The position numbers were made by a program, and so were the translations under genes. Shown here in pieces: positions 12,497-16,222 of a DNA stretch of 64,000 nucleotides (positions within the stretch are counted from its first letter, which is position 1; each line of letters opens with the position of its first letter). The DNA is from Escherichia coli. Its GTDB lineage: Bacteria > Pseudomonadota > Gammaproteobacteria > Enterobacterales > Enterobacteriaceae. The stretch lies in assembly GCF_009931435.1 (NCBI RefSeq), contig NZ_CP043414.1. One strand, written 5' to 3'. The notes beneath the pieces are model-generated. The model made no database searches, was not told the origin of the DNA, and was given only the letters and a program-made list of their open reading frames with translations.

Positions 12497-13255
12497 ATGA
12501 GCCTGACCCTCACACTTACTGGCACTGGCGGCGCACAGGGTGTTCCCGCATGGGGCTGTGAGTGCGCGGCCTGCGCCAGAGCGCGGCGCTCACCGCAGTA
12601 TCGCCGCCAGCCATGCAGCGGCGTCGTGAAGTTTAACGACGCGATCACCCTGATCGACGCCGGACTGCACGATCTCGCCGATCGCTGGTCGCCCGGATCG
12701 TTCCAGCAGTTTTTGCTGACGCACTACCATATGGATCACGTGCAGGGGCTGTTTCCGCTGCGCTGGGGCGTGGGCGATTCGATCCCGGTCTACGGCCCGC
12801 CGGATGAACAGGGCTGCGACGATCTGTTTAAACATCCGGGCCTGCTTGATTTCAGCCACACGGTGGAGCCATTTGTGATGTTTGATTTGCAGGGATTACA
12901 GGTCACGCCGCTGCCGCTCAACCATTCGAAACTCACTTTCGGCTATCTACTGGAAACGGCACATAGCCGGGTGGCGTGGCTGTCTGACACCGCAGGCCTG
13001 CCGGAAAAAACGGTGAAATTTTTATGCAATAATCAGCCACAGGTAATGGTGATTGATTGCTGCCACCCACCGCGCGCGAATTCGCCACGCAATCACTGTG
13101 ATTTAAACACCGTGCTGGCGCTGAATGAAGTTATCCGCTCGCCGTGCGTGGTTCTGACACATATCAGCCATCAGTTTGATGCGTGGCTGATGGAGAACAT
13201 ACTGCCGTCAGGGTTTGAGGCGGGGTTTGATGGGATGGAGATTGGGGTGGAGTGA
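12497..13255 (+). CDS. phnP: Metallo-beta-lactamase-fold phosphodiesterase PhnP, 252 aa
   Basis: ORF track; HxHxDH motif (HYHMDH). Confidence 0.9.
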
Positions 13256-13289
13256 TGGGTGAGGGGCGATGCCTGCTCTAAACTCAACA

Positions 13290-13598
13290 TCACCGCCCAT
13301 ACTCATCTTCCATTCTCCGCTCTTCATCTTCTAGCTGCCGACGCTCCTGATCCAGCTGGCGCTGGCGATCGTCCAGCTGCCTGCGGCGATCTTCATATTG
13401 TCTGCGCCGATCGTCGTTCACTTCACGCTGCCAGCCGTCGTCGCGCCAATCTTCATAGTCTCGCCCACGGTCAGGGTTATAAGCATCGTTAATCGCCTGC
13501 TGAATATTGCCAATGGTGTCGTCGATAATATCGGCCTGGGCCGGAACGGTGGACAGCGTGAGCAGGGTGAATAAAAGAAATAGCGGAAAACGTTTCAT
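13290..13598 (-). CDS. yjdP: Small secreted protein YjdP, 102 aa, with a highly charged R/D/E/Q-rich C-terminal half
   Basis: ORF track; signal-peptide-like N-terminus MKRFPLFLLFTLLTLSTVPAQA, then low-complexity RRRQ/DDRQR repeats. Confidence 0.7.
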   Translation of the reverse strand: MKRFPLFLLFTLLTLSTVPAQADIIDDTIGNIQQAINDAYNPDRGRDYEDWRDDGWQREVNDDRRRQYEDRRRQLDDRQRQLDQERRQLEDEERRMEDEYGR

Positions 13599-13666
13599 TA
13601 GCCAACCTCAAAAAGAAACTCTATCCACATTAGTCATTACTCATCCATGCAAGTAGTGGATGAATC

Positions 13667-13984
13667 TCAATTTTTCCGCTGCTCTATTGCCGTAATCGCC
13701 TCCACGCGTTGTTGATGACGACCGCCTTCGTACTGCGCGCCCAGCCACGCATCCACAATCATTTTTGCCAGTTCGAGGCCAACCACTCGTGAACCAAAAG
13801 CCAGTGCAACTTCACTGGCGTAATGCGGATAATCAGTGCGCTCTGACGACCTGGTTTCTTTATCAATCCCCTCACTCATTGACCATGAATAAAAGGCTGG
13901 CACAGCAACGCAGAATCCTGCGGTGCCAGCGACATGACCGCCCATTGCTCCGGTACGTTTTTTAATAAGAAACACCGGTTGCAT
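13667..13984 (-). pseudogene. rpiB: rpiB-derived remnant: chimeric 105-codon ORF whose C-terminal part matches ribose-5-phosphate isomerase B but which lacks the central third of the protein
   Basis: Translation contains SSERTDYPHYASEVALA joined directly to FGSRVVGLELAKMIVDAWLGAQYEGGRHQQRVEAITAIEQRKN (RpiB-like), preceded by ~40 residues that do not resemble the RpiB N-terminus as I recall it. Confidence 0.6.
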
Positions 13985-14236
13985 TGATTAATTGTGCTCA
14001 GTATTTGCCGAAGTACAATATATATAATAAATATATAAAACACCTCATATTATTTACAGAGATAATAAATTCGCGTACTTTTCCCTCTTCAGCACAAATG
14101 CCTAATAAAATGGCTCGTTCCGCTCACACTTCCACTTATTAAAATCGCAATTTCCCAATTATGATAACGCCAGCTTTAAATGACGTATTTTGCATGGATT
14201 ACATATTTACGACACAAATGATAAATGGAGATTTAT

Positions 14237-16222
14237 ATGAATAACTCTCGGTTATTCCGTTTGAGCAGGATTGTTATTGCGTTAACTGCCGCCAGCGGCA
14301 TGATGGTAAATACCGCTCACGCAACAGATGAAGCGAAAGCCGCCACTCAATATACCCAACAGGTTAATCAGAATTACGCCAAATCATTACCGTTTAGCGA
14401 TCGTCAGGATTTTGACGATGCCCAGCGCGGATTTATCGCCCCGCTGCTGGATGAAGGTATTCTGCGCGATGCGAATGGCAAAGTTTACTACCGCGCGAAT
14501 GATTACAAATTTGATATTAATGCCGCTGCGCCGGAAACCGTAAACCCCAGCCTGTGGCGTCAGTCGCAGATCAACGGCATTTCTGGTCTGTTCAAAGTCA
14601 CCGATAAAATGTATCAGGTGCGCGGCCAGGATATCTCTAACATTACATTCGTTGAGGGCGAGAAAGGCATTATTGTTATCGACCCACTGGTGACGCCGCC
14701 TGCCGCAAAAGCCGCACTTGACCTTTACTTCCAGCATCGTCCGCAAAAACCGATTGTTGCTGTTATTTACACCCACAGCCACGCCGACCATTATGGCGGT
14801 GTGAAAGGCATTATCTCTGAAGCGGATGTTAAATCTGGCAAAGTGCAGGTGATCGCTCCGGCAGGCTTTATGGACGAAGCCATCAGCGAAAACGTGCTGG
14901 CGGGTAACATCATGAGCCGCCGTGCGCTCTACTCTTACGGTCTGTTACTGCCGCACAACGCGCAAGGCAACGTGGGCAACGGCCTGGGCGTGACGCTGGC
15001 AACGGGCGACCCGAGCATTATTGCGCCAACCAAAACGATTGTCAGAACTGGCGAGAAGATGATTATCGACGGCCTGGAGTTTGACTTCCTGATGACTCCG
15101 GGTAGCGAAGCGCCAGCCGAAATGCACTTCTATATTCCGGCCCTGAAAGCCCTGTGTACCGCCGAAAACGCCACGCATACCCTGCACAACTTCTACACCC
15201 TGCGCGGCGCGAAAACCCGCGATACCAGCAAGTGGACAGAGTATCTGAACGAAACGCTGGATATGTGGGGTAACGACGCGGAAGTACTGTTTATGCCGCA
15301 CACCTGGCCGGTCTGGGGCAATAAGCATATCAATGATTATATTGGTAAATATCGCGATACTATCAAATACATTCACGACCAGACCCTGCACCTGGCGAAC
15401 CAGGGTTACACCATGAATGAAATTGGCGACATGATTAAGCTGCCACCTGCGCTTGCCAATAACTGGGCCAGCCGCGGCTATTACGGTTCTGTTAGCCACA
15501 ACGCCCGTGCAGTGTATAACTTCTATCTCGGCTATTATGACGGCAATCCAGCTAACCTACATCCGTACGGTCAGGTGGAGATGGGCAAACGTTACGTGAA
15601 AGCGCTGGGCGGTTCCGCCCGTGTCATCAACCTGGCGCAAGAAGCGAACAAGCAAGGGGATTACCGCTGGTCAGCAGAGTTGCTGAAACAGGTGATTGCC
15701 GCCAATCCGGGTGACCAGGTGGCGAAGAATCTGCAAGCGAATAACTTTGAACAGCTGGGCTATCAGGCCGAGTCCGCCACCTGGCGCGGTTTCTACCTGA
15801 CCGGCGCAAAAGAGCTGCGCGAAGGGGTGCATAAGTTCAGCCACGGCACCACGGGTTCTCCGGACACCCTTCGCGGGATGTCGGTCGAAATGCTGTTCGA
15901 CTTTATGGCCGTTCGCCTCGATAGCGCGAAAGCCGCAGGTAAGAATATCAGCCTGAACTTCAATATGAGCAACGGCGATAACCTCAACCTGACGCTGAAC
16001 GATAGCGTGCTTAACTACCGTAAAACGCTGCAACCTGAAGCCAACGCCTCTTTCTACATCAGCCGTGAAGATCTTCACGCCGTGCTGACCGGACAAGCCA
16101 AAATGGCGGATCTGGTAAAAGCGAAGAAAGCCAAAATTATTGGCAATGGCGCGAAACTGGAAGAAATTATTGCCTGTCTGGATAATTTCGATTTGTGGGT
16201 GAATATCGTAACCCCAAATTAA
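14237..16222 (+). CDS. yjcS: Metallo-beta-lactamase-fold alkyl/aryl-sulfatase family protein YjcS, 661 aa
   Basis: ORF track 14225..16222; start placed at ATG 14237 ([21 protein letters not shown], signal peptide); HSHADH motif. Confidence 0.85.

What the first reader, a model, noticed from the sequence alone, without database searches (positions are those of the whole stretch)
13290..13598. YjdP: secreted small protein with an extreme charged low-complexity repeat region
After a signal peptide the protein is dominated by R, D, E and Q in short repeats (RRRQYEDRRRQLDDRQRQLDQERRQLEDEERRMEDEY). Such polyampholyte segments are unusual for periplasmic proteins and may be intrinsically disordered; function is unknown.
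Basis: seen in the sequence. Interest (0 to 1): 0.2.

Follow-up and report, generated by a model that had tools for sequence, protein, structure and literature searches.

The report
YjdP: exported heptad-repeat helix protein
This is the already-annotated E. coli gene yjdP, a small exported protein of unknown function whose charged tail is an exact seven-residue repeat, predicted to be a rigid helix rather than a disordered one, and whose promoter looks like a target of the Rcs envelope-stress regulator.

Summary
Window 13290..13598 (-) encodes a 102-aa protein containing the quoted peptide at residues 64-100. It is E. coli YjdP: NCBIfam NF041443 "DDRRRQL repeat protein YjdP", 128 bits against a cutoff of 90. 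The locus matched in 5404 of 5426 complete E. coli genomes, and every row shown annotates yjdP.

It is a real gene. dN/dS against Citrobacter is 0.06 for the mature protein and 0.04 for the repeat.

The tail is not loose low complexity. It is an exact heptad, a=L/Y/M/F, b,c=D/E, d-g=R/Q/E. Opposite charges at i/i+3 and i/i+4 are enriched (p about 2e-4). AlphaFold2 predicts one long helix with pLDDT above 90. Most alleles differ by whole heptads (88 to 123 aa); the window allele lacks one unit compared with K-12.

New here is a conserved upstream site. TGAGATTCATCCAC, exactly 23 nt, then TAnnnT occurs in all 16 loci from seven genera. It fits the RcsB box in 7 of 8 specified positions and has the same inferred geometry as the rprA site. 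Published RNA-seq shows roughly 10-fold induction by a LolCDE inhibitor.

Best reading: an Rcs-induced periplasmic protein with a charged helical rod. Its biochemical role remains unknown. The family is already known, so interest is low to moderate.

The parts
13290..13598 (-). yjdP coding sequence (102 codons plus stop)
   Evidence: ORF. NCBIfam NF041443 equivalog, 128.2 bits against cutoff 90. Identical protein P0001 from E. coli. dN/dS 0.06-0.07 against Citrobacter for the mature part.
13533..13598 (-). Signal peptide, residues 1-22 (MKR, hydrophobic core, AQA, then cleavage before D23)
   Evidence: Read directly from the sequence. Hydrophobic core mean hydropathy +2.06. The sequence drifts (dN/dS about 0.3) while the hydrophobic pattern and an A-x-A-D junction are kept in most orthologues. 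No SignalP run was possible.
13479..13532 (-). Conserved N-terminal amphipathic helix, residues 23-40 (DIIDDTIGNIQQAINDAY)
   Evidence: Invariant or nearly invariant columns D23 to Y40 in alignment A1. Helical hydrophobic moment 1.91 against 0.74 +/- 0.37 in shuffles. Helical in the AF2 model at moderate pLDDT, but low-confidence when modelled without the signal peptide.
13449..13478 (-). Acidic and aromatic linker, residues 41-50 (NPDRGRDYED)
   Evidence: Non-helical in the AF2 model, block pLDDT about 56.
13296..13448 (-). Predicted long charged helix ('rod'), residues 51-101, about 7.6 nm if fully helical
   Evidence: AF2 helix H51-101 with pLDDT 91-95 over residues 61-90. Salt-bridge pattern enrichment. 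Length computed.
13293..13415 (-). Heptad array, residues 62-102: DDRRRQY / EDRRRQL / DDRQRQL / DQERRQL / EDEERRM / EDEYGR
   Evidence: Register printed. Family-wide heptad profile a=L63/Y16/M13/F6 %, b=D/E 95 %, f=R 74 %, g=Q/R 98 %.
13374..13415 (-). Copy-number-variable block: two [DE]DRRRQ[YLF] units here, 0-5 in other alleles
   Evidence: Alleles of 88, 95, 102, 109, 116 and 123 aa differ by whole units in this block. The window lacks the unit DDRRRQF that K-12-like strains carry.
13606..13609 (-). Shine-Dalgarno GAGG, 7 nt before the ATG
   Evidence: Read. GAGG or a close variant is present in most of the nine aligned upstream regions.
13627..13632 (-). Inferred -10 hexamer TAATGT (TAnnnT in all orthologues)
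   Evidence: Found exactly 23 nt after the box in all 16 loci. The consensus sigma-70 scan found no promoter, as expected for an activator-dependent promoter with a poor -35. The transcription start site is not mapped here.
13656..13669 (-). RcsB-box-like operator TGAGATTCATCCAC, which overlaps the TGA stop codon of the rpiB remnant
   Evidence: Core T.RGA....TCY.C is invariant across seven genera while the flanks are diverged. It matches the published box TN(G/A)GAN4TC(T/C)NA in 7 of 8 specified positions. It shares ATTGAGA...ATC with the crystallised rprA site. A pattern match alone is not significant in the window: 3 found against 4.9 expected.

Best explanation
The ORF is yjdP, a stand-alone gene with its own promoter.

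Shown or strongly supported: it encodes a real, conserved protein with a Sec-type signal peptide. Cleavage after A22 would leave an 80-aa acidic periplasmic protein of about 10 kDa. That protein has a conserved amphipathic N-terminal helix, a short acidic and aromatic linker, and a C-terminal array of exact heptads (L-[DE]-[DE]-R-[RQ]-R-Q).

Inferred: the array folds into one long alpha-helix. Dense i/i+3 and i/i+4 Asp/Glu-Arg salt bridges would stabilise it, and it would carry a single Leu/Tyr/Met stripe flanked by arginines. This makes it a stiff charged rod of about 7-8 nm. Replication slippage or unequal recombination between 21-bp units changes its length by whole heptads (about 1 nm each) without changing the helix face.

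Inferred: transcription is activated directly by phosphorylated RcsB bound to a conserved box centred near -42.5, the same geometry as at rprA. YjdP would therefore be made when the Rcs envelope-stress phosphorelay fires, for example on lipoprotein mis-sorting or outer-membrane and peptidoglycan damage.

Speculative: YjdP acts as a non-enzymatic envelope-stress factor. The conserved N-terminal helix would be the binding end, for a partner or a membrane surface. The rod would be a spacer or an electrostatic surface for charged envelope polymers or cationic agents.

My confidence is about 0.95 for identity as a real exported protein, about 0.7 for a helical rod rather than a disordered tail, about 0.75 for direct RcsB control, and 0.25 or less for any specific biochemical role. 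The overall figure of 0.6 summarises these tiers.
For: Identity: NF041443, 128 bits against cutoff 90. Precomputed Pfam PF28054 'YjdP' on all listed homologues. The locus matched in 5404 of 5426 complete E. coli genomes, and yjdP is annotated in every row shown, lying next to phnP.

Real protein: dN/dS against Citrobacter is 0.06-0.07 for the mature part, 0.04 for the repeat and about 0.3 for the signal peptide, with dS about 1.4-1.5. Of 110 clusters in the top 120 that start with M[KR], 84 have lengths equal to 102 modulo 7.

Helix: the heptad profile has only position 'a' hydrophobic. Salt-bridge pairs number 31 against 18.8 +/- 3.2. AF2 gives helix 51-101 with pLDDT 91-95.

Stand-alone unit: the upstream neighbour differs between lineages (rpiB, rpiB remnant, hybrid histidine kinase, molybdopterin oxidoreductase). 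E. fergusonii lacks phn beside it.

Rcs control: all 16 loci from seven genera have exactly one box, then exactly 23 nt, then TAnnnT, with 56-59 nt from box end to ATG. The box fits the published RcsB box. The rprA site CCTATTGAGACGAATCTGATCGG spans -53 to -33, which places its box at the position inferred for yjdP. yjdP was induced 9.5- and 10.6-fold by a LolCDE inhibitor together with rcsA, the wca genes, yjbE/G and osmC.
Against: No experiment links RcsB to yjdP. The LolCDE inhibitor also induces Cpx genes (cpxP, degP). The box has C instead of the consensus A at its last position, and the pattern alone is not enriched. The transcription start site is inferred, not mapped, and no sigma-70 consensus promoter was found. 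The gene was absent from the Rcs and iModulon supplements that I could search.

Asp is a weaker helix former than Glu. AF2 confidence in the rod fell to about 74 in the signal-less tethered-dimer model. No structural or sequence relative of known function exists. The functional role is therefore a guess based on localisation, regulation and chemistry.
Confidence: 0.6

Rival explanations
1. The heptad array is a leucine-zipper-like coiled coil. YjdP would then work as a dimer or trimer, a soluble periplasmic coiled-coil rod comparable in principle to Lpp.
For: A hydrophobic residue occurs exactly every 7th position over 5-7 heptads in all family members. The rod has a significant hydrophobic moment, 0.86 against 0.32 +/- 0.16. 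Sources auto-name some members 'Skp family chaperone' or 'colicin uptake', names apparently prompted by their coiled-coil-like composition.
Against: Position d is E or R, never hydrophobic, so half of a canonical a/d core is missing. An AF2 model of two mature copies joined by a 40-residue Gly-Ser linker did not gain confidence: rod pLDDT about 74 against above 90 for the monomer, pTM 0.37. That test is weak, because it used an artificial tether and a shallow alignment.
Confidence: 0.2
2. The tail is an intrinsically disordered polyampholyte, a hydrophilin or LEA-like protectant that acts through bulk hydration or charge.
For: Charged-residue fraction 0.67, GRAVY -2.25. Stress-induced expression. 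No fold match. Copy number is tolerated over a wide range.
Against: The heptad register is exact and the residues in the fixed heptads are nearly invariant at dN/dS 0.04. A composition-only function would not need that. AF2 gives a helix with pLDDT above 90. Charge placement is non-random in the i/i+3, i/i+4 sense. Glycine is 5 %, below the 6 % hydrophilin criterion that I recall from memory.
Confidence: 0.15
3. Induction runs through Cpx, sigma-E or another regulator rather than RcsB, and the conserved upstream block is a site for a different factor.
For: The LolCDE-inhibitor response includes Cpx targets. yjdP is also listed with a genic ChIP peak and about 3.5-fold lower expression for one regulator in an acid-resistance study; I did not resolve which regulator. 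The box deviates at one consensus position.
Against: On reading the upstream region I saw no CpxR (GTAAA-N5-GTAAA), sigma-E or Pho box conserved there. The only conserved block is the RcsB-like one, and it varies only at positions where the RcsB consensus is degenerate. Its geometry matches rprA.
Confidence: 0.15
4. The ORF is not a gene. The signal would then be a DNA repeat, an antisense ORF (13259..13492 +, 77 aa) or an RNA element between phnP and rpiB.
For: The region contains 21-bp tandem repeats and long ORFs on both strands.
Against: Strong purifying selection acts in the minus-strand frame with saturated synonymous sites. Most indels are in-frame whole heptads. The Shine-Dalgarno sequence and ATG are conserved. 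There is no Rfam hit at E<=1. Transcript counts of 478-672 appear in a published RNA-seq table.
Confidence: 0.02
5. YjdP is an accessory of phosphonate (phn) or allose (als/rpiB) metabolism because of where it sits.
For: It lies between phnP and rpiB in most E. coli and near phn genes in Citrobacter, Buttiauxella, Cronobacter and Klebsiella.
Against: It is convergent with phnP and has its own promoter. It is kept when als/rpiB is deleted (this window), replaced by the OI167 island or replaced by other genes. It is also kept when phn is not adjacent, in E. fergusonii and Entomohabitans.
Confidence: 0.03

Closest known systems
YjdP family (NCBIfam NF041443 'DDRRRQL repeat protein YjdP'; Pfam PF28054)
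   Same: This is a full-length member. It scores above the equivalog cutoff, has the same synteny as K-12 yjdP, and is 100 % identical to an E. coli database protein.
   Different: This allele has 102 aa, one heptad fewer than the K-12-like 109-aa form and two fewer than its closest DNA relative at 116 aa. It carries W51 where the other aligned members have S, A or N. The family has no assigned function.
Charged single alpha-helix (SAH, 'ER/K') domains, e.g. in myosin VI/X and caldesmon (from my own knowledge)
   Same: Very high density of alternating acidic and basic residues placed for i/i+4 salt bridges. Predicted as one long isolated helix. Such segments are readily mistaken for coiled coil or disorder.
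   Different: YjdP uses Asp/Arg/Gln rather than Glu/Lys/Arg. It has a strictly conserved hydrophobic residue once per heptad. It is a bacterial periplasmic protein rather than a spacer within a eukaryotic motor. Monomeric helicity has not been tested.
Braun's lipoprotein Lpp (from my own knowledge)
   Same: A small, exported, heptad-repeat alpha-helical envelope protein. Lpp length in whole heptads matters physiologically, and lengthening Lpp alters periplasm width and Rcs signalling.
   Different: Lpp has a full a/d hydrophobic core and forms a trimer. It has a lipobox Cys and a C-terminal Lys linked to peptidoglycan. YjdP has none of these.
RcsB-activated promoters with a box next to the -35 region, notably rprA
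   Same: Shared sequence ATTGAGA-N3-ATC. The box would occupy -49 to -36 if TAATGT is the -10 hexamer, which is where the rprA 23-mer (-53 to -33) places its box. yjdP is co-induced with the Rcs genes rcsA, wca and osmC.
   Different: The last box position is C, not A. No binding or genetic data exist for yjdP.
Small envelope-stress-induced periplasmic proteins (Spy/CpxP/ZraP chaperones; YbgS, YncJ and OsmB of unknown function)
   Same: Small size, Sec export and strong induction by envelope damage. YbgS, YncJ and CpxP appear in the same induced gene list.
   Different: No sequence or profile similarity to these families. No LTXXQ motifs. YjdP is acidic, whereas Spy and CpxP have basic concave surfaces (from my own knowledge).

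Membership tests
YjdP (NCBIfam NF041443 equivalog / Pfam PF28054) | Whole-protein HMM score above the curated cutoff | tested here: met
   128.2 bits against cutoff 90, E=1.2e-37, covering profile positions 1-101 of 101. PF28054 is precomputed on all listed homologues. My local Pfam copy lacks that model.
YjdP (NCBIfam NF041443 equivalog / Pfam PF28054) | Orthologous position in Escherichia (convergent with phnP, downstream of rpiB) | tested here: met
   Same order phnM-N-O-P / yjdP / rpiB (remnant) as in annotated E. coli genomes.
YjdP (NCBIfam NF041443 equivalog / Pfam PF28054) | DDRRRQL-type heptad repeats after a signal peptide and a conserved N-terminal segment | tested here: met
   Units DDRRRQY / EDRRRQL / DDRQRQL / DQERRQL / EDEERRM. 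Alignment A1.
Sec/SPase I-exported periplasmic protein | n-region with positive charge, 10-15-residue hydrophobic core, A-x-A at -3/-1, no lipobox Cys | tested here: met
   MKR / FPLFLLFTLLTLSTV (hydropathy +2.06) / PAQA before D. The pattern is conserved while the sequence drifts. This was judged by reading only; no SignalP run and no experiment.
Canonical coiled coil | Hydrophobic residues at both a and d positions of the heptad | tested here: not met
   Position a is 100 % L/Y/M/F, but d is 42 % E, 42 % R and 11 % D across 120 members.
Canonical coiled coil | Self-association into a dimer or trimer | tested here: inconclusive
   The tethered-dimer AF2 model has pTM 0.37 and lower rod pLDDT than the monomer. 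This is a weak in-silico proxy; solution data are needed.
Charged single alpha-helix (SAH) domain | Dense opposite charges spaced i/i+3 and i/i+4 along a long predicted helix | tested here: met
   31 pairs against 18.8 +/- 3.2 in shuffles. Helix 51-101 with pLDDT above 90.
Charged single alpha-helix (SAH) domain | Absence of a hydrophobic seam | tested here: not met
   One strictly conserved hydrophobic residue per heptad.
Charged single alpha-helix (SAH) domain | Stable monomeric helix in solution with non-cooperative melting | not testable with these tools
   Needs CD, AUC or SAXS on the purified mature protein.
RcsB regulon (direct target) | RcsB box TN(G/A)GAN4TC(T/C)NA placed suitably for activation | tested here: inconclusive
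   7 of 8 specified positions match (C for the final A). The box is invariant across seven genera with a fixed 23-nt spacing to TAnnnT. Its geometry equals rprA. The pattern alone is not significant.
RcsB regulon (direct target) | RcsB-dependent expression and RcsB~P binding | not testable with these tools
   Only indirect evidence: 9.5- and 10.6-fold induction by a LolCDE inhibitor alongside Rcs genes.
Hydrophilin / LEA-like protein | Gly above 6 % and high hydrophilicity index (criteria recalled from memory) | tested here: not met
   Gly is 5.0 %. GRAVY -2.25 satisfies the hydrophilicity criterion only.
Lpp-like envelope tether | Lipobox cysteine and C-terminal Lys for peptidoglycan linkage | tested here: not met
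   No Cys anywhere in the protein. The C-terminus is ...EYGR.

The most novel reading that the evidence does not exclude
YjdP would be a directly RcsB-activated periplasmic single alpha-helix rod, which to my knowledge would be the first SAH-type domain described in a bacterial periplasm. Its length would be tuned between strains in whole-heptad steps of about 1 nm. It would work as a molecular spacer, or as an electrostatic decoy for cationic antimicrobials or charged envelope polymers, during envelope stress.
Probability: 0.12. Interest if true: 0.55.

Novelty: already known. Interest (0 to 1): 0.25.

Why it matters
YjdP is one of the uncharacterised 'y-genes' of E. coli. The locus is found in nearly all complete genomes, and orthologues occur in at least seven enterobacterial genera. 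This work yields two directly testable hypotheses that I did not find in the searchable literature. The first is that yjdP is a direct RcsB target with rprA-like promoter geometry. The second is that its tail is an ordered, salt-bridged helical rod rather than disordered low complexity, with natural length variants (88-123 aa) that could serve as an allelic series. Confirmation would add a member to the Rcs envelope-stress regulon and provide a simple bacterial model for charged single helices. It would not overturn anything. The gene, the repeat and the family name are already in public annotation.

Tried and rejected
- Local Pfam scan: only sub-threshold noise (DUF7900 15.5 bits against 27). 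The family model PF28054 is newer than the local copy.
- PDB sequence search and Foldseek of the AF2 model against the PDB: no hits. This is uninformative for a lone helix.
- PADLOC defence models: noise only.
- Rfam at E<=1 over 12800-14400: nothing.
- Sigma-70 consensus and terminator scan over 13100-14300: no promoter. The only terminator-like hairpin lies inside the rpiB remnant.
- RcsB-box pattern count in the window: 3 against 4.9 expected, so a pattern match alone carries no weight. The argument rests on the phylogenetic footprint.
- Literature: 'yjdP' occurs in 7 papers, none functional. 'b4487' gives only unrelated hits. Laubacher & Ades 2008 is not held. yjdP is absent from the held supplements of the colicin M, Bury-Mone and iModulon papers. 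An imipenem and plasmid RNA-seq supplement shows it is transcribed and changes 1.4-fold.
- AF2 tethered dimer as a test for coiled-coil pairing: no gain in confidence. I treat this as weak negative evidence.
- Linkage to phn or als function: rejected on synteny.
- CpxR, sigma-E and Pho boxes: looked for by eye in the aligned upstream regions. None was conserved.
- I did not resolve which regulator's ChIP table lists yjdP in PMC5217608.
Full report

Yes. The ORF listing reports an ATG-initiated ORF at exactly 13290..13598 on the minus strand, 102 aa long. The quoted peptide is residues 64-100.

The N-terminus is a textbook Sec/SPase I signal. It has MKR, a 15-residue hydrophobic core (mean hydropathy +2.06), then P-A-Q-A before D23. 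There is no cysteine, so the protein is not a lipoprotein.

The predicted mature protein is 80 aa and about 10.1 kDa, with pI about 4.5. It has 17 Arg, 17 Asp, 9 Glu and 9 Gln, and a net charge of -9. The charged-residue fraction is 0.54 overall and 0.67 in the last 45 residues. GRAVY is -2.25.

**2. What is it?**

It is the E. coli gene yjdP. The protein scores 128.2 bits against NCBIfam NF041443, the equivalog 'DDRRRQL repeat protein YjdP', whose cutoff is 90. All database homologues listed carry the precomputed Pfam family PF28054 'YjdP'. My local Pfam copy predates that model and returned only noise.

A 601-bp query around the gene matched 5404 of 5426 complete E. coli genomes. All the rows shown annotate yjdP there. 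The flanking order phnM-N-O-P / yjdP / rpiB matches annotated genomes. An identical protein, P0001, exists in E. coli, but on only 4 contigs. The best DNA match is 97.4 %, so this is an uncommon allele.

**3. Is it a real protein?**

I aligned codons of the window gene with 15 orthologues and computed Nei-Gojobori dN/dS.

| Comparison | Region | dN/dS |
|---|---|---|
| Two Citrobacter lineages (dS about 1.4-1.5) | mature protein | 0.06-0.07 |
| Two Citrobacter lineages | repeat region alone | 0.04 |
| Two Citrobacter lineages | signal peptide | about 0.3 |

The faster signal peptide is the usual pattern for a genuine exported protein. Most length differences are in frame. Of 110 clusters in the top 120 that start with M[KR], 84 have lengths equal to 102 modulo 7. 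Many of the rest look like draft-assembly frameshifts or run-ons.

The Shine-Dalgarno GAGG, 7 nt from the ATG, recurs as GAGG or a close variant in most of the aligned genera. A published RNA-seq supplement lists several hundred reads for the gene. No Rfam family matches the region. The antisense 77-aa ORF (13259..13492 +) has nothing in its favour.

**4. Anatomy of the tail**

The tail is not loose low complexity. In register it reads DDRRRQY / EDRRRQL / DDRQRQL / DQERRQL / EDEERRM / EDEYGR, with hydrophobic residues at 68, 75, 82, 89 and 96.

The heptad profile across 120 intact family members is as follows.

| Position | Residues |
|---|---|
| a | L 63 %, Y 16 %, M 13 %, F 6 % |
| b | D/E 95 % |
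| c | D/E/Q |
| d | E 42 %, R 42 %, D 11 % |
| e | R/Q/E |
| f | R 74 % |
| g | Q 56 %, R 42 % |

Only one position per heptad is hydrophobic. The canonical coiled-coil 'd' position is charged. Opposite charges at i/i+3 and i/i+4 occur 31 times, against 18.8 +/- 3.2 in composition-preserving shuffles (p about 2e-4).

AlphaFold2 with a 21-sequence alignment predicts a helix spanning the signal peptide and residues 23-40. It then predicts a loop at 41-50 and a continuous helix over 51-101. That helix has pLDDT 91-95 over residues 61-90. The pTM is 0.34, as expected for an extended object. A fully helical rod of 51 residues would be about 7.6 nm long, and each heptad adds about 1.05 nm.

I also modelled two mature copies joined by a 40-residue Gly-Ser linker, using a matched alignment. 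Confidence fell rather than rose: rod pLDDT was about 74 and pTM 0.37. There is therefore no in-silico support for a confident self-paired coiled coil, though this is a weak test.

My reading is a salt-bridge-stabilised single helix carrying a Leu stripe flanked by arginines. This resembles eukaryotic 'ER/K' single alpha-helices (from my own knowledge), but it fails their 'no hydrophobic seam' criterion. Full disorder is the less likely alternative, given the exact register and the very strong purifying selection.

**5. The rest of the protein**

Residues 23-40 (DIIDDTIGNIQQAINDAY) are the best-conserved segment of the family. They form a strongly amphipathic helix, with hydrophobic moment 1.91 against 0.74 +/- 0.37 in shuffles. 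Without the signal peptide AF2 gives this segment low confidence. It may fold only against a partner, a membrane or the rod's Leu stripe. I regard it as the likely binding end; this is inference.

**6. Repeat-number variation**

Alleles of 88, 95, 102, 109, 116 and 123 aa differ by 0-5 copies of the [DE]DRRRQ[YFL] unit. These units sit in front of an invariant block, DDRQRQL-DQERRQL-EDEERRM-EDEY.

The window allele (102 aa) lacks the unit DDRRRQF that is present in the K-12-like 109-aa form. Its closest DNA relative has 116 aa. Different 102-aa alleles have lost different units, for example P0004 compared with the window. These are recurrent slippage or recombination events rather than one ancestral state. 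At DNA level only two 21-bp copies are similar enough for Tandem Repeats Finder to report.

**7. Range and context**

An exhaustive HMMER search of 1.84 billion representatives found only 44 hits at E<=1e-3. All but one marginal hit (P0161, E=8e-4) are small proteins, and those I inspected share the same architecture. Named members come from Escherichia (coli, albertii, marmotae, fergusonii), Shigella, Citrobacter, Klebsiella sp., Buttiauxella, Entomohabitans and Cronobacter dublinensis.

The gene usually sits near phn genes, but its neighbours change. The upstream gene is variously rpiB, an rpiB remnant (this window), a hybrid histidine kinase (the OI167 island described in PMC10128022) or a molybdopterin oxidoreductase. 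In E. fergusonii and Entomohabitans no phn operon is adjacent. yjdP is therefore a self-contained unit, not part of the phosphonate or allose pathways.

**8. Regulation**

This is the most informative new result. I aligned the 110 nt upstream of the ATG from 9 loci and then 16 loci. One block stays conserved while its flanks diverge: TTGAGATTCATCCACT in E. coli.

In all 16 loci from seven genera there is exactly one match to T-N-R-G-A-N4-T-C-Y-N-N. It is followed after exactly 23 nt by a TAnnnT hexamer (TAATGT, TAACGT, TACCGT, TACCTT, TATCTT or TAGCGT). The distance from the end of the box to the ATG is 56-59 nt.

The divergent EHEC-type lineage has replaced the upstream region and the first codons, yet it keeps this arrangement. 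The positions that vary are the ones that are degenerate in the published RcsB box, TN(G/A)GAN4TC(T/C)NA (PMC7913699). The single departure is an invariant C where the consensus has A at the last position.

The RcsB site crystallised from the rprA promoter is CCTATTGAGACGAATCTGATCGG, spanning -53 to -33. It shares ATTGAGA-N3-ATC with yjdP, and its box lies at -49 to -36. If TAATGT (13632..13627) is the -10 hexamer at -12 to -7, the yjdP box (13669..13656) also lies at -49 to -36.

The sigma-70 consensus scan found no promoter. That fits an activator-dependent promoter with a poor -35. The pattern alone is not significant in the window, at 3 matches against 4.9 expected. The argument rests on conservation and geometry.

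Independent expression evidence comes from a LolCDE inhibitor study (PMC5105897). In its RNA-seq, yjdP rose 9.5- and 10.6-fold. The same list contains rcsA, the wca genes, yjbE/G and osmC, which I recognise as Rcs targets. It also contains the Cpx genes cpxP and degP. From my own knowledge, mislocalised lipoproteins activate Rcs through RcsF.

I put direct RcsB activation at about 0.75. I found no statement of this in the searchable literature. yjdP is also absent from the few Rcs-related supplements held as text.

**9. How it most likely works**

- Shown or strongly supported: yjdP encodes a conserved protein with a Sec-type signal peptide, an exact heptad tail and whole-heptad length polymorphism. 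It is a monocistronic unit with a conserved RcsB-like operator.
- Inferred: the signal is cleaved at A22/D23 and the protein is periplasmic. The tail is a stiff charged helix. Transcription is RcsB-dependent during envelope stress.
- Speculative (0.25 or less): YjdP is a non-enzymatic stress factor. Its conserved amphipathic N-helix docks on a partner or membrane. Its rod acts as a spacer or as an electrostatic surface for cationic antimicrobials, lysozyme or anionic polymers such as colanic acid, OPGs or LPS. Nothing here discriminates between these roles.

**10. Comparison with what is known, and verdict**

The gene, the repeat and the family name are already in public annotation, so the finding is 'already known' as an entity with unknown function. 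Its 'disordered low-complexity' gloss is probably wrong.

The added value is a pair of testable hypotheses, an RcsB target and a single-helix rod, plus a natural allelic series. Interest is low to moderate, 0.25.

**11. Dead ends**

The searches and tests that gave nothing are listed in the tried-and-rejected field.

Noticed in passing
window 13667..13984 (-) and 14225..16222 (+): rpiB is reduced to a 105-aa remnant. Only its C-terminal part is RpiB-like (...FGSRVVGLELAKMIVDAWLGAQYEGGRHQQRVEAITAIEQRKN) and the N-terminal part is unrelated. The whole als operon is missing, so yjcS (alkyl sulfatase) follows directly. The same layout is annotated in E. coli 2017-02-2CC. K-12-like strains have intact rpiB-alsR-alsB-alsA, and EHEC-type strains carry the OI167 two-component island there. 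The yjcS to yjdP interval is a replacement hot spot whose right-hand edge lies at or beyond the RcsB-like box; the EHEC-type replacement extends into yjdP itself.
   Followed up: partly
L016 432..779 and L017 432..788 (E. coli EC-16-526 and AVS0193): There is a second, independent tandem-repeat polymorphism in the same small gene. A 9-bp (FTL)n expansion sits inside the hydrophobic core of the signal peptide (LFTLFTLFTLFTLFTVPAQA), giving 115- and 118-aa precursors. A longer hydrophobic core could change export efficiency.
   Followed up: no
window 13256..13289: The convergent stop codons of phnP and yjdP are only 34 bp apart, with no terminator-like hairpin detected. K-12-like strains have 146 bp there, containing the REP-like 'HPGQ' element listed in PMC5100583. 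The window lacks that element.
   Followed up: partly
window 13446..13448 (codon 51 of yjdP): The window allele has Trp at residue 51 (YEDWRDDGW). The other aligned family members have Ser, Ala or Asn there. This substitution is shared only with the identical database protein P0001.
   Followed up: no
window 13667..13669: The TGA stop codon of the upstream gene (the rpiB remnant here) forms the first three bases of the RcsB-like box. In Citrobacter sp. the upstream histidine-kinase gene ends about 70 nt before the yjdP ATG, which would put its end at or next to the box as well; I did not read that sequence. Transcription reading out of the upstream gene would run straight through the operator.
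   Followed up: no
PMC5217608 table (K-12 coordinate 4311501): yjdP is listed among the 'top 20 repressed genes'. It has a genic ChIP peak and about 3.5-fold lower expression for one of the regulators in an acid-resistance network study. I did not determine which regulator.
   Followed up: partly
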